A stretch of DNA of 64,000 nt from Oligoflexia bacterium (GCA_903935335.1 CAIZRG010000049.1:51759-115758); one strand, 5' to 3'; positions 52,146-64,000 are shown, counted from the stretch's first letter. The notes: generated by a model not told the origin, from the letters alone. Numbers and translations are program-made.

Positions 52146-53642
52146 ATGGATATTTCAAAAGAAAAAAAGTGGTTTGTATATTTAGGTAACCATCATGAAG
52201 GACCCTTTTCATTGGAGGAAATCCAAGAGAAACTGACTCAAGGGGTGATTTCCAAAGAAGGGTTTGTTTGGGCTGAGGGAATGCCAGATTGGAAACCCAT
52301 GACACAGGTTCCCGATTTTCAAGTTCTAGCAACCTCCCTGAACGAAGACTCTCCGCCAAGCAAGACCCCAGAACCAGAGCTTTTCAATGAAATTGAAGAA
52401 AAAACCTTCGAAAAAATTTCTGAGAACCTTCTACTCACACAAACAATTTCACCTCGAGATGAACAAAACCTACGATCAAAAAGCTCGAAAAAATCATTTT
52501 TTCGATCTATCTCTAAAAAAATCAAATGGGGAATTCTTTGTCTCACTGGGCTCAGTTTTTTTTATTTCCAAGAATTTTTTGAAACACCTTCAAGCCTTAA
52601 CCAACTCATCGAACTTTCATGGCCCTACCGACTGGACTTATTAGATAAAACACCAGAATTAGCCCAATGGATTTCCCCTTTACCATCCCTAGACGGTGTA
52701 AGCTCAGATGAAGTTGACCTCATGAAATTAGCCGCCCTTGAACCACCTGGGGGTTCGGGACCTCAAATCGCCATGGGACTTTCTAGAACAGATATTTTAC
52801 ACCCTACTCTCTATGTTGCCTCTCGCTTACCAGACAAGACTCAATTCCAAGCTTATATCGTGGGTGTTTCAGACACCCTTTTAAAGGAACGATCCTATAT
52901 CAGTCAGCTCAATATCAGTCTTACCCATAGAATTGGAAAATCGAGCCCTCTTTATTTTAAAAACAAAAGCCCTCTCCCAAAAGGAGAATACAGGATCTAT
53001 CTCACATCTGGCACACCCTCATCTCCAGAGGATGAAACTCGTTTTAATTTAATGAAAAGTATTCCTCACCCACAATACAATGACTTACCTAAAGATATTA
53101 AAGTTCTTGCCTTTAAGACCTATTTTCTAGGAGGAATCAGAGACGCAATCTATACGAGGGAACTCAATGAATATCACACTCAACTCAGAATCGAGGCTGA
53201 GAACGAAATCAAAGAACTCACTCAATTTTTAAATACTCTGGAAAGCCAATTCAATGCATCATCTGCTAAATTTGGAATCCTTAAAAAAATAAAAGGATCA
53301 TCTAAAAAAATGAACTGGATTCCTTTTCATCAAGAATGGACAAAGCTTCAAAAACAGTTAGATGAACTTTTTAATGAATCGCCACCTGAAAAAAACAGCG
53401 ACAGATATTTTTATTCAGATTTATACCTCATGATTCAAAAATTGAGCCAGACTGTTCAAACAGAACATCATCTCCATCATCTTTACTTCACTGAAGTAGG
53501 GGACTCAAAAGCTAGGGAAATCCAAATTGGAGACACAAATTTATTAACGCAGACTATCATTTCGCAGCTCAAAGCAAAATTAGCACACTTAACATCTCTC
53601 CCTCCCTTACCTAATGGACTACCTCAAAAAGAGGAACAATAA
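52146..53642 (+). CDS. DUF4339 (GYF-like) domain protein with TM segment and long C-terminal region
   Basis: N-terminal KKWFVYLGNHHEGPFSLEEIQEKLTQGVISKEGFVWAEGMPDWKPM is the DUF4339 signature. One TM (ILCLTGLSFFYF). Confidence 0.5.
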   Translation: MDISKEKKWFVYLGNHHEGPFSLEEIQEKLTQGVISKEGFVWAEGMPDWKPMTQVPDFQVLATSLNEDSPPSKTPEPELFNEIEEKTFEKISENLLLTQTISPRDEQNLRSKSSKKSFFRSISKKIKWGILCLTGLSFFYFQEFFETPSSLNQLIELSWPYRLDLLDKTPELAQWISPLPSLDGVSSDEVDLMKLAALEPPGGSGPQIAMGLSRTDILHPTLYVASRLPDKTQFQAYIVGVSDTLLKERSYISQLNISLTHRIGKSSPLYFKNKSPLPKGEYRIYLTSGTPSSPEDETRFNLMKSIPHPQYNDLPKDIKVLAFKTYFLGGIRDAIYTRELNEYHTQLRIEAENEIKELTQFLNTLESQFNASSAKFGILKKIKGSSKKMNWIPFHQEWTKLQKQLDELFNESPPEKNSDRYFYSDLYLMIQKLSQTVQTEHHLHHLYFTEVGDSKAREIQIGDTNLLTQTIISQLKAKLAHLTSLPPLPNGLPQKEEQ

Positions 53643-53656
53643 AGGTAGAATTAAAA

Positions 53657-54073
53657 ATGAAAAAAAATCAATCACCTTCGCCGACAGATCCAACAGTTGA
53701 GCGAAGAGAATCTAAAAGAAGAGCCGTTCTCTCCCAATTTTCAATTTTTTTATTAATTCCAAAGCATGGAATTCATAAACTCGCTGTTCATAACCTGAGT
53801 GAAAGCGGGATTTTATTTGAGTTTGATACTGAAAATGAATCTATTGCTAATTGCCCGATTCAAGTAGGAGATGAACTTGAATCCAAGCTGTATATCAACT
53901 CTTCTCTTTATATTCCTCTTTACTTAAAATTAGCTCGAATAGAAAATCACTCTGATCACCGAAAGATTGGAGCTAGTTTTTACAAAAAAGACACCGAAGA
54001 ATATCGAACCTTTATCTTTTTTCTTCATGTATTAGATGGGCTATCCAAAATAAATAATACTCAATCTAATTAA
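53657..54073 (+). CDS. PilZ-domain protein (putative c-di-GMP receptor)
   Basis: RRESKRR (RxxxR) followed by NLSESGILF (D/NxSxxG), the two PilZ c-di-GMP-binding motifs at correct spacing. Confidence 0.6.
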   Translation: MKKNQSPSPTDPTVERRESKRRAVLSQFSIFLLIPKHGIHKLAVHNLSESGILFEFDTENESIANCPIQVGDELESKLYINSSLYIPLYLKLARIENHSDHRKIGASFYKKDTEEYRTFIFFLHVLDGLSKINNTQSN

Positions 54074-54129
54074 AGTTAATTTCTGAATTTTTTCTGATTG
54101 TCCAAAACTAGAAAATTTTACCTATTTAG

Positions 54130-61695: not shown

Positions 61696-63096
61696 ATGTC
61701 CAATCAAGATCAAACACCTATCCCTCTTATTGTTGATCCTGATGAAGTTTTTCTTGATTCACTCATTAAAACGAACACTCAAGGCCCTCCCCCATTGATT
61801 GCTTCTTCTGGAAAAGCAGCTCAACTCGCAATAGCTGACCTCAGCCAAAAAATCTCAGGGGTTTTAATCAATCCTGCAATATCTAATCCTAGCGGGATAT
61901 CCGTTATTCGCTCGACTCATCTACACAGACCTTCTATACCCGTTTTTTTAATTTATGACAACAAATTGCCTTTTAATGACAAAGAGTTAAGAAGATTAGG
62001 AGTGAAAAAAAGCATTCAAAAACCGATTTCTATTCAAACAATATATGAGATTGTACAACCTAAAGTCAGTTTATTTGATCCAAAAAAAATCCTCCAATTA
62101 GATAGCCTAAAACCTCTTCACCCTTTGGATACTGAAATTGAAGCAAATGAGTCCAACTTTGTTTCTATCCAAGCCCAAGAGTTTGTCGCTGGAAGTGTTT
62201 CTTATTTTGATTTATATATTAAACTAGGTACTAATAAATTTATAAAACTCCTCCAAGCTGGGGACCCTTTTCATAAAGATCGCCTTCAATCTTACCTGGA
62301 CCGCGGAGTCAAAAATTTTTACCTAAGAAAAGAAGCTCAAATTCATTACCTAAACTATTGCGATCGTTTAGCCTCCGCAATGCTCAAATCTAAACCTAAA
62401 TCGACTCATTTTACAGTGAAGCAAATTTTAAATCATGGAAAGGAAACATTTGATTTTTTTAAAACCCAAGGCATTAGCGAAAGTAACCTCGCTTTTGCTC
62501 AGCGATTTATTACAAATGTGACTGCTTTAGTAGATCAACTCAAACCGGGAGAACACCCTCTCTTAAAGGGCTTTCTTCAAAACGCTGCTGCTTGTGAACA
62601 TGGTGTTGGAGTCACTTTGATTGCATCCCTTTTAATTCCTTCTCTTGGAATCATCTCGGTTAATCCAATTTCTACAGTTGGAATCGCTGCTTTATTTCAT
62701 GACGTTGGTCTTCAGGTCTTAGAAATAGACCATGAGGATGAATCAAAAATGACAGAAAAAGAAAAAGAAAAATTCCGTTCGCATACCATCATTGGAGAGC
62801 AAATTTTATCAAAAGTAAAAGGGATTAACCCCACGGTACTTCAAGCCGTTATTCAACATCATGAACGAAGAAATAAAAAAGGGTTCCCTTTTCGGTGTGG
62901 CCCTGGAACACTCAGTATGATAGCAGAGCTTATTGGGGTCAGTGACGAGTTTATGAGACTTGTGAGTCGAATCATAAAAAAAGAGAAGTTTAATCTGAAC
63001 TTAGAGATTAGAAATCGTATTATTGACTGTTTCTCTCCTAATATTGTGAATGAATTCAGGAAAGTTTTTCTTTTTTCTGAAACTCAAAAAAAATAA
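61696..63096 (+). CDS. Pseudo-receiver plus degenerate HD-GYP domain protein
   Basis: N-terminus PLIVDPDEVF...ISGVLINPAIS has Asn in place of the phospho-acceptor Asp. ALFHDVGL (HD) ... HHERRNKKGFPF, where GYP is replaced by GFP and the Gly/Asp are missing. Confidence 0.6.
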   Translation: MSNQDQTPIPLIVDPDEVFLDSLIKTNTQGPPPLIASSGKAAQLAIADLSQKISGVLINPAISNPSGISVIRSTHLHRPSIPVFLIYDNKLPFNDKELRRLGVKKSIQKPISIQTIYEIVQPKVSLFDPKKILQLDSLKPLHPLDTEIEANESNFVSIQAQEFVAGSVSYFDLYIKLGTNKFIKLLQAGDPFHKDRLQSYLDRGVKNFYLRKEAQIHYLNYCDRLASAMLKSKPKSTHFTVKQILNHGKETFDFFKTQGISESNLAFAQRFITNVTALVDQLKPGEHPLLKGFLQNAAACEHGVGVTLIASLLIPSLGIISVNPISTVGIAALFHDVGLQVLEIDHEDESKMTEKEKEKFRSHTIIGEQILSKVKGINPTVLQAVIQHHERRNKKGFPFRCGPGTLSMIAELIGVSDEFMRLVSRIIKKEKFNLNLEIRNRIIDCFSPNIVNEFRKVFLFSETQKK

Positions 63097-63153
63097 AAAT
63101 TTAATAAATATTTTAAATTTAAGTTCCGATCTAATTACAATACAGGAGATTCG

Positions 63154-64000
63154 ATGTCCTCATCAAGGGATCAAGAAATCAGTGAGTTTAAGACTGAAGC
63201 GATGGATTTATTAGATGTAGCAGAAAAATCTCTCCTAGCACTTGATTCAGGCGGGGATTTCAAACTTCACTATGATTCAATTTTTAGAACGTTTCATAAT
63301 CTAAAAGGCGCTGCCGGAATGATGGAGCTGGGTGAGCTTCAATCTCATATGCACGAATTAGAAAACATTTTAGTCAACTCAAAAGAAAGCGCTGTTTTAA
63401 AGAAAGAGCTGATTGACTTCTTTCTAAGAGGCGTTGACGCAACCAAACAACTGCTTGAAAATAAGACTATTGTATTTGATTATGAAGTTCCTATTTCTGA
63501 GCCTCCTATCGATTCAGCCGTAACCTCACCGGACACCCCCGTCATTGCGAACGCTCCTCATAAGCCGTCAACCTCAACCCCTAGTTTTGTTTTATCCGAA
63601 AGTTCGATGGGAGAATTTTTAGCAGAGTGCGATGAAATTTCCGAAAGACTTTCCAAAAATTTTCTTCAACTTGAACAAAAAACAAACTCTCAGGAAACGA
63701 TTGATACGATCTACCGAGATTTTCACTCTTTAAAAGGATCGGCTCAGCTTTTTGGATTTAGCCAATTAGGTGAACTCGCTCATCTCATGGAATCTTGTCT
63801 TGATCCGTTAAGGAAAAAAAAAGTTCAATTATCTAATTTCCTAGTAGATGTTCTTCTTAAATGCATTGACTTAGTAGACCGCATGATTAAGTCAATCCGA
63901 GAGAAAGAGCCCTTAAACTTCAAAACCCAAATTCATGCTTTAACTGAAGCCTTAGAAAAAATGATATCCGACCCTCAGGGAGATGATTCCCCTATGCCTG
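63154..64000 (+). CDS. cheA: CheA-like histidine kinase N-terminus with two tandem HPt (P1-like) domains; 3' partial, runs off the window end
   Basis: Manual translation from ATG 63154, with aggag 5 nt upstream. HPt1 ...IFRTFHNLKGAAGMMELGEL. Pro/Ser/Thr linker. HPt2 ...IYRDFHSLKGSAQLFGFSQLGELAH. Not in the ORF track because it has no stop in the window. Confidence 0.6.
   Translation, partial: MSSSRDQEISEFKTEAMDLLDVAEKSLLALDSGGDFKLHYDSIFRTFHNLKGAAGMMELGELQSHMHELENILVNSKESAVLKKELIDFFLRGVDATKQLLENKTIVFDYEVPISEPPIDSAVTSPDTPVIANAPHKPSTSTPSFVLSESSMGEFLAECDEISERLSKNFLQLEQKTNSQETIDTIYRDFHSLKGSAQLFGFSQLGELAHLMESCLDPLRKKKVQLSNFLVDVLLKCIDLVDRMIKSIREKEPLNFKTQIHALTEALEKMISDPQGDDSPMP

What the first reader, a model, noticed from the sequence alone, without database searches (positions are those of the whole stretch)
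52146..64000. Chemosensory-like cluster wired to c-di-GMP turnover, with no flagellar genes in the window
Within 12 kb, co-localised and partly co-oriented, lie nine genes:
- a DUF4339 membrane protein;
- two tandem PilZ receptors;
- REC-CheX;
- CheY;
- a pseudo-REC HD-GYP phosphodiesterase;
- STAS-CheX;
- a second pseudo-REC protein with degenerate HD-GYP (divergent from the first);
- a CheA-like kinase with two HPt domains.

This looks like a Che-type phosphorelay whose outputs are c-di-GMP hydrolysis and PilZ effectors plus a partner-switching (STAS) module. It does not look like a flagellar-switch pathway. Non-canonical Che pathways of this composition are poorly described. If the host is a non-motile intracellular or symbiotic lineage, as the RING/LRR effectors nearby suggest, the cellular function is open.
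Basis: partly seen in the sequence, partly recalled or inferred. Interest (0 to 1): 0.8.

Follow-up and report, generated by a model that had tools for sequence, protein, structure and literature searches.

The report
Bdellovibrio-type chemotaxis cluster with HD-GYP genes
The window ends in the first half of a complete chemotaxis gene cluster of a type shared by many predatory Bdellovibrio-like bacteria, and it carries two cyclic-di-GMP-related (HD-GYP) genes that recur beside this cluster in relatives; it is an interesting variant of ordinary chemotaxis, not a non-flagellar pathway.

Summary
The genes are real. Tools confirm GYF_2 (formerly DUF4339), PilZ, REC-CheX, CheY, HD-GYP, STAS-CheX, a Bd1817-like HD-"GFP" protein and a two-Hpt CheA. 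The second PilZ is below threshold, and the pseudo-receiver of the 448-aa HD-GYP protein is only weakly supported.

The source contig continues with the rest of CheA (dimerisation, ATPase, 2x CheW-like, REC), then CheW, CheY, CheR, CheB and a soluble globin-PAS MCP. This is a complete Che system.

Its orthologues are abundant in Bdellovibrionota. One is the cultured Pseudobdellovibrio exovorus, whose operon also ends CheY-CheX-STAS-CheX.

CheY1 is a canonical CheY: 52% identical to V. cholerae CheY3, with motor-binding CheYs as its top solved-structure hits. "Not a flagellar-switch pathway" is therefore disfavoured, but flagellar genes could not be searched for in this genome.

- **c-di-GMP link, partly supported:** HD-GYP genes sit beside this operon type in 5 of 8 CheA-anchored loci (counting the window) and beside CheY-STAS-CheX pairs in four more contigs. 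Both window copies lack the phosphoacceptor Asp, so they cannot be direct phosphorelay outputs.
- **Partner switching, unsupported:** there is no conserved phospho-Ser and no cognate kinase or phosphatase.
- **PilZ operon, unlinked:** it is a separate unit with no conserved linkage to the cluster.

Verdict: a new variant of a known kind, of moderate interest.

The parts
52146..53642 (+). GYF_2 (ex-DUF4339) protein, 498 aa, with one hydrophobic segment. First gene of a separate GYF_2-PilZ-PilZ unit.
   Evidence: Pfam GYF_2 1.1e-15 at residues 9-58. The NCBIfam hit is only to the GYF domain of GltJ, 1.5e-6 and far below cut-off. No homologue lies near che genes in any fetched locus.
53657..54073 (+). 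PilZ-domain protein 1, 138 aa, with canonical c-di-GMP-binding motifs.
   Evidence: Pfam PilZ 2.8e-6, 28.1 bits against a cut-off of 22.5. Sequence shows R-ESK-R (RxxxR) and N-L-S-E-S-G (D/NxSxxG).
54175..54642 (+). Divergent PilZ-like protein 2 (155 aa from the ATG; 170 aa from GTG at 54130), with degenerate motifs.
   Evidence: Pfam PilZ below threshold, E=0.049 and 14.4 bits. 19% identity to PilZ1, E=0.019. KNTER and EISENG replace RxxxR and D/NxSxxG. A terminator-like hairpin plus T9 at 54734-54757 follows it.
56796..58001 (+). Beta-solenoid plus C-terminal RING-finger protein, 401 aa. It lies 39 bp upstream of REC-CheX on the same strand. It is a lineage-specific insertion and not part of the conserved Che module.
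   Evidence: Pfam zf-RING_5 8.7e-8 and zf-C3HC4_3 5.1e-7. A promoter-like site lies at 56731-56759. It is absent from all orthologous loci.
58041..58952 (+). REC-CheX fusion, 303 aa: a phosphorylatable receiver joined to a CheY-P phosphatase domain.
   Evidence: Pfam REC 1.5e-14 and CheX 1.6e-15. D12/D13/D57/S87/K109 equivalents are present. The D-x3-E-x2-N motif is present (sequence). The same fusion occurs in L110, 294 aa.
58974..59366 (+). CheY1, 130 aa: a canonical single-domain CheY and the likely motor-directed output.
   Evidence: Best PDB hits are V. cholerae CheY3 (3.8e-37, 52% identity), H. pylori CheY1 and E. coli/Salmonella CheY (about 1e-33). NCBIfam CheY 1.4e-38 against 3e-21 for the next family. 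An orthologue lies directly beside STAS-CheX in 13 of the 15 loci whose STAS-CheX match covers the STAS region (L087, L089-L100, L102, L104), and in 13 of the 14 of those whose contigs reach past both ends of the match.
59368..60714 (-). HD-GYP protein, 448 aa: a degenerate receiver-like N-domain, a Bd1817/DUF3391-like middle domain, and an HD-GYP domain with an intact GYP. Second gene of the STAS-CheX operon.
   Evidence: HD_5 1.6e-20 and motif HHERPSGSGYP. Paralogue of the 466-aa protein, 26% identity over 304 aa. No acceptor Asp or Lys in the N-domain. The same STAS-CheX to HD_5 (448 aa) pair occurs in the P0052 locus. Orthologues lie beside CheY1/STAS-CheX in L096, L097, L099 and L102.
60769..61602 (-). 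STAS-CheX, 277 aa: an N-terminal STAS fold and a C-terminal CheX phosphatase with an intact catalytic motif.
   Evidence: Pfam CheX 1.4e-16. AlphaFold pLDDT 82. Foldseek gives CheX 6VPW at TM 0.90 and SpoIIAA 1TID at TM 0.80. D206-x3-E210-x2-N213-x22-P236 is conserved in 108-114 of 114 family representatives.
61696..63096 (+). Pseudo-receiver plus Bd1817-like HD-'GFP' protein, 466 aa. Probably co-transcribed with cheA (57-bp gap).
   Evidence: Family alignment and invariant H302, H335-D336, H363, H388-H389. Profile hits to Bd1817 3TM8 (1e-25), PmGH 4MCW (5e-11) and receivers (1e-7 or weaker). D57->N. The family was found only in Bdellovibrionota MAGs.
63154..64000 (+). N-terminus of a hybrid CheA (1009 aa in the source contig): Hpt-Hpt, then beyond the window H-kinase_dim, HATPase_c, two CheW-like domains and REC. 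It is followed by CheW, CheY2 and CheR, with CheB and the globin-PAS MCP on the opposite strand.
   Evidence: Translation. Pfam Hpt x2. Full gene and downstream genes in L001. 51% identity over 99% coverage to P. exovorus CheA.

Best explanation
The region is the upstream half of a complete chemosensory cluster of a type conserved across Bdellovibrionota.

Inferred signal path:
1. A soluble globin-PAS-PAS MCP senses O2 or redox state.
2. It controls a hybrid CheA with two Hpt domains, two CheW-like domains and a C-terminal REC, through CheW.
3. CheR and CheB provide adaptation.
4. CheA phosphorylates CheY1, a canonical CheY that most likely acts on the flagellar switch. It probably also phosphorylates CheY2, the receiver of REC-CheX, and its own REC.
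5. REC-CheX and STAS-CheX both keep the CheX catalytic motif, so they would terminate the signal by dephosphorylating CheY-P.

Two paralogous proteins of architecture (pseudo)receiver + DUF3391/Bd1817-like domain + HD-GYP are embedded in the cluster. One forms an operon with STAS-CheX. The other lies just upstream of cheA.
- Their receivers lack the phosphoacceptor, so they are not phosphorelay targets.
- The most likely role is cross-talk by protein-protein contact between CheY-P turnover and c-di-GMP.
- The 448-aa protein looks like an active phosphodiesterase.
- The 466-aa protein lacks the active-site Tyr, as Bd1817 does, and may be a weak enzyme or a sensor.

The GYF_2-PilZ-PilZ operon 3.4 kb upstream is a separate unit. 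Any role as a c-di-GMP receiver for this system is speculative.

Shown: gene content, domain architecture, catalytic and acceptor residues, orthology and recurrent synteny. Inferred: all phosphotransfer steps, the motor target, enzyme activities and the contact-based coupling.
For: - Complete Che set on the source contig.
- The best 120 CheA hits listed all show 47-59% identity, and all but two carry the same five-domain architecture.
- The P. exovorus JSS operon reads CheA-CheW-PAS MCP-CheB-CheY-CheR-CheY-CheX-STAS+CheX.
- CheY1 closely resembles motor-binding CheYs, while CheY2 is generic.
- The CheX motif is conserved in 108-114 of 114 STAS-CheX representatives. The fold is confirmed.
- The REC-CheX fusion and the globin-MCP also occur in L110 and the P0052 locus.
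- HD-GYP genes are adjacent in 5 of 8 CheA-anchored loci and in L096, L097, L099 and L102.
- An intact-receiver homologue lies next to the orthologous operon in L111.
- Acceptor residues are present in CheY1, CheY2, REC-CheX and the CheA REC, and absent in both HD proteins.
- Bdellovibrionota genomes generally carry flagellar and che genes (PMC8067016).
- V. cholerae shows that CheX acting on a CheY3-type CheY is subject to PilZ/c-di-GMP-linked control (PMC12799141).
Against: - No flagellar gene lies in the roughly 85 kb examined. The remaining ~350 kb of this contig and the rest of the genome were unreachable, so motility of this organism is unproven.
- The taxonomic placement rests on the signalling genes only. 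Housekeeping proteins are singletons with no names.
- A hybrid CheA with two Hpt domains and a C-terminal REC is, from my own knowledge and untested here, more typical of Tfp- or alternative-function-class systems than of most flagellar classes.
- B. bacteriovorus has two true CheA homologues (PMC6428892). I could not show which one serves the flagellum.
- The chemosensory class could not be assigned. The MCP heptad class was ambiguous.
- FliM-contact positions K119 and K122 of E. coli CheY are Q and V in CheY1.
Confidence: 0.6

Rival explanations
1. Alternative-cellular-function pathway, essentially the first reader's view. The Che core mainly controls c-di-GMP level through the HD-GYP proteins, read out by PilZ proteins, independently of flagella.
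For: - HD-GYP genes recur next to this operon type.
- L111 has an intact REC-HD-GYP beside the orthologous operon.
- The CheA is a hybrid with two Hpt domains and a REC.
- No flagellar genes lie nearby.
- A PilZ pair lies 3.4 kb away.
Against: - Both window HD proteins lack the acceptor Asp.
- P. exovorus and L110 have the operon with no HD-GYP gene.
- CheY1 is a canonical motor-type CheY that always travels with STAS-CheX.
- The PilZ operon is separated by a terminator-like site, a tRNA and unrelated genes, and is not syntenic anywhere else.
Confidence: 0.2
2. The system steers a non-flagellar motility machine or the predatory pole, such as type IV pili or gliding. The GYF_2 protein and PilZ proteins would be part of that output.
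For: - The multi-Hpt hybrid CheA-REC architecture resembles ChpA/FrzE-type kinases (own knowledge).
- The GYF_2 domain resembles that of the gliding protein GltJ, 1.5e-6 at domain level only.
- Bdellovibrio uses gliding and pili, and a PilZ gene heads one gliding operon (PMC3271064).
Against: - No pil, glt or agl genes lie in the window or flanks.
- The GltJ hit is 27.6 bits against a cut-off of 450.
- CheY1 and CheX are hallmarks of flagellar systems.
- There is no synteny between GYF_2/PilZ genes and che genes in relatives.
Confidence: 0.1
3. The HD-GYP and PilZ genes are bystanders. Bdellovibrionota are rich in such genes, so adjacency reflects gene density and rearrangement rather than function.
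For: - B. bacteriovorus has 15 PilZ and 6 HD-GYP genes in 3.8 Mb (PMC3271064).
- Only 5 of 46 loci holding homologues of the 466-aa protein have che genes nearby.
- A rearrangement scar (truncated TauE, tRNA-Arg, inserted RING gene) lies inside the region.
Against: - For the HD-GYP genes, the same STAS-CheX to HD-GYP(448) operon occurs in an independent contig. CheY1/STAS-CheX/HD-GYP trios occur in four more. Two different HD-GYP subfamilies are involved.
- For the PilZ genes this rival is in fact my preferred reading.
Confidence: 0.1

Closest known systems
che operon of Pseudobdellovibrio (Bdellovibrio) exovorus JSS, CP003537.1, about 296.5-306.2 kb
   Same: - Orthologous hybrid CheA, 51% identity over 99% coverage, with the same Hpt-Hpt-dimerisation-ATPase-CheW-REC architecture.
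- CheW, a cytoplasmic sensor MCP, CheB, CheY, CheR, a CheY1 orthologue (52% identity), CheX and STAS-CheX.
   Different: - The P. exovorus operon is colinear on one strand and has a PAS-only MCP.
- Its CheX is standalone (169 aa) rather than fused to REC.
- It has no HD-GYP, RING or PilZ genes within 10 kb.
V. cholerae PlzC-CheX-CheY3 circuit (PMC12799141, PNAS 2026)
   Same: - A CheX phosphatase acts on a CheY3-type CheY and is controlled by a PilZ-domain protein.
- CheY1 here is 52% identical to CheY3.
- The CheX fold here best matches Vibrio CheX, 6VPW.
   Different: - In Vibrio, cheX is a standalone gene away from the che cluster. No HD-GYP or STAS fusion is involved.
- The paper reports that PlzC's motility role through CheX is separate from its c-di-GMP-binding-dependent biofilm role.
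- Here any PilZ-CheX contact is untested.
Bd1817 of B. bacteriovorus (PDB 3TM8; PMC3188283)
   Same: - The 466-aa family aligns to Bd1817 over the DUF3391-like domain plus the HD-GYP domain, 1e-25.
- Both lack the active-site tyrosine of GYP.
   Different: - Bd1817 has no N-terminal (pseudo)receiver and has lost more of the HHExxDGxGYP motif.
- Its deletion gave no phenotype, and it is not reported as linked to che genes.
RpfG-type REC-HD-GYP response regulators
   Same: Receiver-like domain followed by HD-GYP. The L111 homologue has an intact receiver next to the orthologous che operon.
   Different: - The window proteins have pseudo-receivers (D57->N, or all key residues lost) and an extra DUF3391-like domain.
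- The partner kinase would be a CheA rather than an RpfC-type sensor.
Wsp system of Pseudomonas (Che-like pathway with a c-di-GMP enzyme output) and the CheA-associated phosphodiesterase Pch/DipA (own knowledge, not tested here)
   Same: Chemosensory machinery coupled to c-di-GMP turnover. WspE is also a hybrid CheA-REC.
   Different: - Wsp drives synthesis through a phosphorylatable REC-GGDEF protein and has no canonical CheY or CheX.
- This cluster has hydrolase-family proteins with dead receivers, plus a full CheY/CheX branch.
HemAT-type globin-coupled aerotaxis receptors
   Same: A soluble heme-globin sensor fused to an MCP signalling domain. The proximal His is conserved.
   Different: - The globin hits Pfam Globin (PF00042) and is closest to Methylacidiphilum HGb-type globins, 3S1I at 5e-23; no Protoglobin hit was returned. 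That HemAT's globin is of the protoglobin/sensor type is from my own knowledge.
- Two PAS-like segments are inserted between the globin and the MCP domain.

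Membership tests
Chemosensory (Che) pathway | CheA with Hpt, dimerisation, HATPase and CheW-like domains | tested here: met
   Pfam on the 1009-aa protein: Hpt x2, H-kinase_dim, HATPase_c, CheW x2, REC.
Chemosensory (Che) pathway | CheW, MCP, CheR, CheB and a phosphorylatable CheY in the cluster | tested here: met
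   Pfam: CheW 4e-27, MCPsignal 3e-34, CheR 3e-55, CheB 2e-61. CheY1 and CheY2 have D12/D13/D57/T87/K109.
Flagellar (F-class) chemotaxis system | The CheY output resembles FliM-binding CheYs | tested here: met
   V. cholerae CheY3 at 3.8e-37 and 52% identity. E. coli and Salmonella CheY at about 1e-33. The non-motor CheY4 scores only 3e-15. NCBIfam CheY 1.4e-38. Actual binding was not testable.
Flagellar (F-class) chemotaxis system | A flagellar apparatus is encoded in the same genome | not testable with these tools
   Only the window plus or minus 10 kb was reachable, and it holds no flagellar genes.
Flagellar (F-class) chemotaxis system | Assignment by class-specific CheA/CheW/CheB/CheR models and MCP heptad class | tested here: inconclusive
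   Class HMMs were not available. The MCP aligns to the Tsr signalling domain (3ZX6) with one 7-residue gap and to T. maritima TM1143 (2CH7) with register shifts; which heptad class each represents is from my own knowledge.
CheC/CheX/FliY phosphatases (CheX class) | Catalytic D/S-x3-E-x2-N-x22-P motif and CheX fold | tested here: met
   STAS-CheX has D206, E210, N213 and P236, conserved in 108-114 of 114 relatives. Foldseek TM 0.90 to CheX 6VPW. REC-CheX has D-x3-E-x2-N, with the Pro one residue closer (sequence). Activity was not testable.
STAS partner-switching module (SpoIIAA/RsbV type) | STAS fold | tested here: met
   Foldseek hits to SpoIIAA 1TID/1TH8, RsbS 6JHK and STAS 4XS5 at TM 0.75-0.81. 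Pfam STAS 1.3e-10 in the P. exovorus orthologue.
STAS partner-switching module (SpoIIAA/RsbV type) | Conserved phosphorylatable Ser/Thr at the start of helix 2 | tested here: not met
   The window protein has E at that position. Across 114 relatives the position is mostly P/Q/R and is S/T in 10%.
STAS partner-switching module (SpoIIAA/RsbV type) | Cognate anti-sigma-type kinase and PP2C phosphatase nearby | tested here: not met
   None appear in the Pfam maps of the window, L001, L087, L088, L110, L111 or the P0052 locus.
HD-GYP c-di-GMP phosphodiesterases | HD_5 profile, metal-ligand His/Asp residues and an HHExxDGxGYP motif | tested here: met
   448-aa protein: HD_5 1.6e-20, HD, HHE and GYP present (HHERPSGSGYP), with Asp at the position aligning with the Glu of the ETxxH motif in PmGH (4MCW). 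Enzyme activity was not testable.
HD-GYP c-di-GMP phosphodiesterases | The same features, in the 466-aa protein | tested here: not met
   HD_5 is weak, 5.5e-9. The His/Asp ligands are invariant, but the motif reads HHERRNKKGFP: Tyr->Phe and Asp->Asn. Ala occupies the position that aligns with the Glu of the ETxxH motif in PmGH (4MCW). It resembles the unconventional Bd1817.
Response-regulator receiver domains | Phosphoacceptor Asp with the acidic pair, T/S87 and K109 | tested here: not met
   466-aa protein: D57->N and T87->Y. 448-aa protein: G/E, G, I and L at the five positions. The same losses occur in orthologues.
PilZ c-di-GMP receptors | Pfam PilZ above the gathering score, with RxxxR and D/NxSxxG motifs | tested here: met
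   PilZ1: 28.1 bits against 22.5, and both motifs are present.
PilZ c-di-GMP receptors | The same features, in the second ORF (54175-54642) | tested here: not met
   14.4 bits against 22.5. The motifs are degenerate (KNTER, EISENG). There is only 19% identity to PilZ1.
Alternative-function (Wsp-like) chemosensory systems | An enzymatic output protein with a phosphorylatable receiver encoded in the cluster | tested here: not met
   Both window HD-GYP-family proteins have dead receivers. A relative, L111, does meet the feature.

The most novel reading that the evidence does not exclude
CheY1, STAS-CheX and a pseudo-receiver HD-GYP protein form a conserved Bdellovibrionota module. In it the dead receiver acts as a non-hydrolysable CheY mimic that docks on the CheX or STAS domain. 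CheY-P phosphatase availability and c-di-GMP hydrolysis would then regulate each other. This would be a direct, phosphotransfer-independent bridge between chemotaxis signalling and the second-messenger network, possibly read out by the neighbouring PilZ proteins.
Probability: 0.15. Interest if true: 0.7.

Novelty: new variant of a known kind. Interest (0 to 1): 0.45.

Why it matters
- **Uncharacterised system.** I found no experimental study of Bdellovibrionota che operons in the searched library.
- **Large untested family.** STAS-CheX has more than 100 full-length cluster representatives and 1860 HMMER hits. I found no tested member.
- **Candidate mechanism.** The recurrent pairing of this phosphatase and its CheY with HD-GYP-family proteins gives a concrete route by which predatory bacteria could integrate taxis with c-di-GMP-controlled lifestyle switches. 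It parallels the PlzC-CheX link just shown in V. cholerae.
- **What it is not.** This is not evidence for a Che pathway in a non-motile symbiont.

Tried and rejected
1. Chlamydiae hypothesis, suggested by the RING/LRR proteins and 38% GC. A literature search found nothing relevant. All signalling genes have Bdellovibrionota relatives, so I dropped it.
2. Naming the organism. An exact look-up of RadA, LigA, HtpG and others gave singleton clusters with no names. tblastn of window proteins against all fetched loci gave no useful housekeeping matches. The window genome is not among the GTDB representatives scanned.
3. Finding flagellar genes. Only plus or minus 10 kb around the window could be read, and none were there. 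Look-ups are restricted to window proteins, so the rest of the 431-kb contig was unreachable.
4. Testing the pseudo-receiver of the 448-aa protein by structure. The AlphaFold model had pLDDT below 50 for residues 1-60 and 105-165. No fold search was run on it.
5. MCP heptad class from PDB alignments. Ambiguous.
6. c-di-GMP riboswitches or other RNAs. Rfam found only tRNAs.
7. Pfam DUF3391 on the middle domain. No hit even at E<=10. Homology to the Bd1817 N-domain rests on the profile alignment.
8. Literature on Bd3469/Bd0578 neighbourhoods. Only the RomR paper mentions them.
9. The promoter scan was not enriched over shuffles (28 found, 32.7 expected). The individual sites are weak evidence.

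Full report
**1. What is in the sequence**

Pfam confirms the following:
- GYF_2, the renamed DUF4339, in the 498-aa protein.
- PilZ in the 138-aa protein.
- Response_reg plus CheX in the 303-aa protein.
- Response_reg in the 130-aa protein.
- HD_5/HD in the 448-aa and 466-aa proteins.
- CheX in the 277-aa protein.
- Two Hpt domains in the open-ended ORF that starts at 63154.

Two assignments are weaker.
- The second "PilZ" (54175-54642) reaches only 14.4 bits against a cut-off of 22.5. It is 19% identical to the first, and both c-di-GMP-binding motifs are degenerate.
- The N-terminal domain of the 448-aa protein has no family hit. Its AlphaFold model is unreliable there. A receiver origin rests on a weak REC hit in an orthologue, 1.2e-4, and on the alignment.

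The STAS domain of the 277-aa protein is not seen by Pfam. Three results support it:
- The AlphaFold model has pLDDT 82.
- Foldseek matches the N-domain to SpoIIAA, RsbS and STAS structures at TM 0.75-0.81, and the C-domain to CheX at TM up to 0.90.
- The Pseudobdellovibrio exovorus orthologue hits Pfam STAS directly, 1.3e-10.

**2. The block is not one unit**

Between the GYF_2-PilZ-PilZ genes and REC-CheX lie:
- a terminator-like hairpin with a T9 tail;
- two small unknown ORFs on the other strand;
- tRNA-Arg;
- a TauE gene of which only the C-terminal half survives;
- a 401-aa beta-solenoid/RING-finger gene.

From spacing and orientation, the likely transcription units are:
- GYF_2-PilZ-PilZ (+);
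- RING-REC-CheX-CheY1 (+);
- STAS-CheX-HD-GYP448 (-);
- HD466-CheA... (+).

**3. What lies beyond the window**

An exact-protein look-up placed the window on a 431,822-bp metagenome contig (ERZ27229619, k141_97126) and returned 10 kb past the window end (locus L001; window coordinate = L001 + 51695).

CheA is 1009 aa. Its domains are Hpt, Hpt, H-kinase_dim, HATPase_c, two CheW-like domains and a C-terminal receiver.

It is followed by CheW, a second CheY (126 aa) and CheR. CheB and a 666-aa soluble MCP lie on the opposite strand. The MCP has a globin domain, PAS-like segments and an MCP signalling domain. The globin keeps the proximal His and is closest to Methylacidiphilum HGb-type globins.

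**4. Whose system it is**

- The 466-aa protein has about 33 orthologues, at most 49% identical. Those that carry names are Bdellovibrio or Bdellovibrionia MAGs.
- A scan of one genome per GTDB species found the family only in Bdellovibrionota-type MAGs (Bdellovibrio, Bacteriovoracaceae, Oligoflexia), often in several copies per genome.
- The best 120 CheA hits listed are all 47-59% identical, and all but two share the five-domain architecture. One is the cultured P. exovorus JSS, at 51% identity over 99% coverage.
- The JSS operon reads CheA-CheW-PAS MCP-CheB-CheY-CheR-CheY-CheX-STAS+CheX.
- An exhaustive HMMER search with STAS-CheX gave 1860 cluster representatives at E<=1e-3. More than 100 of them are full-length proteins of about 275 aa.

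The Che core, the CheY1-CheX-STAS-CheX tail and the HD466 family are therefore lineage-typical rather than unique. The organism itself is not close to anything named. Its RadA, LigA and HtpG are singletons at 90% clustering, and its genome was not in the GTDB representative set.

**5. Flagellar or not**

Evidence pointing to a flagellar output:
- CheY1 is 52% identical to V. cholerae CheY3 (3TO5, E=3.8e-37). It scores about 1e-33 to 1e-34 against H. pylori CheY1 and E. coli/Salmonella CheY, but 3e-15 against the non-motor V. cholerae CheY4.
- NCBIfam's CheY model beats the next family by 17 orders of magnitude.
- CheY2 is a generic receiver.
- An orthologue of CheY1 lies directly beside STAS-CheX in 13 of the 15 fetched loci whose STAS-CheX match covers the STAS region; one of the two exceptions is a 1.4-kb contig that ends at the match.
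- The CheX catalytic motif is essentially invariant across 114 diverse STAS-CheX proteins: D206 in 108, E210 in 114, N213 in 113 and P236 in 114.
- CheX-type phosphatases are known as CheY-P phosphatases of flagellar chemotaxis in Borrelia, Thermotoga, Bacillus and now V. cholerae (PMC12799141).
- Bdellovibrionota genomes are reported to carry flagellar and che genes throughout the phylum (PMC8067016).

Evidence against, or missing:
- I found no flagellar gene in the roughly 85 kb I could read.
- I could not reach the rest of the genome.
- B. bacteriovorus has two true CheA homologues (PMC6428892), and I could not show which one runs the flagellum.
- The class of the system could not be assigned.

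I put a flagellar output at about 0.6.

**6. The c-di-GMP connection**

The two HD proteins are paralogues, 26% identical over 304 aa. They share the architecture receiver-like domain + DUF3391/Bd1817-like domain + HD-GYP (PMC12943098 for the domain name).

- **448-aa protein.** It keeps HD, HHE and GYP, so it looks like a competent phosphodiesterase.
- **466-aa family.** It keeps the His/Asp metal ligands but reads HHERRNKKGFP, lacking the active-site tyrosine. [quoted passage not shown]
- **Receivers.** Neither protein can be phosphorylated. The acceptor Asp is Asn in one and Gly in the other, and other key residues are lost. The same holds in their orthologues.

The association with the Che genes is nevertheless recurrent:
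- An independent 240-kb contig (the P0052 locus) has the same STAS-CheX(276)-HD_5(448) operon, divergent from a globin-MCP-CheB-CheR-CheA-CheW operon.
- L088 has an HD466-type gene next to CheY and CheX genes, divergent from cheA.
- L025 has CheB-CheY-CheR-STAS-CheX-CheY-HD466.
- L111 has a convergent homologue with an intact receiver: DD, D, T and K are all present.
- Four short metagenome contigs carry STAS-CheX/CheY1/HD-GYP trios.
- P. exovorus and L110 lack an HD-GYP gene.

Coupling of this Che system to HD-GYP proteins is therefore real at the level of gene neighbourhood. In this genome it cannot be a simple phosphorelay.

My preferred inference is contact-based regulation between the CheX/STAS proteins or the CheA Hpt domains and the dead receivers. 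This is untested.

**7. Partner switching and the PilZ genes**

Partner switching is not supported.
- The STAS domain lacks a conserved phosphorylatable Ser or Thr. The position is E in the window protein and is S/T in only 10% of 114 relatives.
- No SpoIIAB/RsbW-type kinase or PP2C phosphatase appears in any neighbourhood I examined.

The PilZ genes show no conserved linkage. No homologue of GYF_2, PilZ1 or PilZ2 lies near che genes in the 60-odd Bdellovibrionota-type loci scanned (L005-L050 and L087-L108).

B. bacteriovorus has 15 PilZ genes in 3.8 Mb (PMC3271064). On that density, a PilZ locus within 6 kb of any given point has roughly a 5% chance expectation. That figure is my own estimate.

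The V. cholerae PlzC-CheX result (PMC12799141) makes a PilZ-CheX link conceivable. Nothing here supports it beyond proximity.

**8. Verdict**

- **Observation:** largely correct.
- **Interpretation:** right that Che and c-di-GMP components are linked. Probably wrong that the pathway is non-flagellar, that STAS implies partner switching, and that the PilZ proteins are its outputs.
- **Classification:** a lineage-typical Bdellovibrionota chemotaxis cluster carrying an uncharacterised, recurrent accessory module (STAS-CheX, REC-CheX and pseudo-receiver HD-GYP proteins). It is a new variant of a known kind.
- **Interest:** moderate. It would rise if the genome proves to lack flagella, or if the CheX/pseudo-receiver coupling is demonstrated.

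Noticed in passing
window 56796-58001 (+): A 401-aa protein with an N-terminal hydrophobic segment, beta-solenoid repeats (bactofilin/hexapeptide/YdcK-like) and a C-terminal eukaryote-type RING finger. It sits 39 bp upstream of REC-CheX behind a promoter-like site. It is absent from all orthologous che loci. It may be an E3-ligase-like effector inserted into the cluster.
   Followed up: partly
window 55818-56332: tRNA-Arg(ACG) lies next to a TauE/SafE gene of which only the C-terminal half (profile positions 129-237) remains. No upstream reading frame survives. This looks like a rearrangement or insertion scar between the PilZ operon and the che genes.
   Followed up: partly
L001:17277-19277 (-), about 17 kb... 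window-equivalent 68972-70972, beyond the window end: The cluster's MCP carries a classical (Pfam Globin) haem domain closest to Methylacidiphilum HGb globins; as far as I know HemAT's globin is instead of the protoglobin type. Two PAS-like segments follow. The same globin-MCP occurs in L110 and the P0052 locus, while other relatives have PAS-only MCPs.
   Followed up: partly
window 52146-52320 (N-terminus of the 498-aa protein): The GYF_2 domain gives a domain-level hit (1.5e-6) to the GYF domain of the Myxococcus gliding-motility protein GltJ. The rest of the protein is unrelated.
   Followed up: no
window 21900-24100 (L085:17731-19602): A 278-aa leucine-rich-repeat protein lies next to an integrase (rve) fragment and a CopG-type antitoxin gene. 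These look like mobile-element remnants. A patatin-like gene lies at 42211-43542.
   Followed up: no
L008:2157-4936 and L012:10001-12810: Homologues of the 466-aa pseudo-receiver HD protein occur as tandem duplicates, and as 2-3 dispersed copies per MAG (JACPOE01, JAHFAB01, JBDSKY01, CAZBEI01). The family is expanded in Bdellovibrionota.
   Followed up: no
L092:8144-9514, L093:7506-9494, L095:8128-9537; also L088:889-2172: A type I phosphodiesterase/nucleotide pyrophosphatase (PF01663) gene sits immediately upstream of the CheY1-STAS-CheX pair in several contigs, and near the che cluster in L088.
   Followed up: no
L001:19794-20816 and L110:4914-5981: A deoxyhypusine-synthase-family gene lies next to the che cluster both on the window's contig and in the closest CheA relative, L110. 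This suggests conserved local synteny in this sub-lineage.
   Followed up: no
whole window: Proteins identical to those of the window occur on contigs from at least five different samples (ERZ27229619, SRR8496333, ERZ27313254, ERZ1426519, ERZ18637247). Yet even RadA, LigA and HtpG have no relative at 90% identity or above in the 15-billion-protein collection. The organism seems widespread but phylogenetically isolated.
   Followed up: partly
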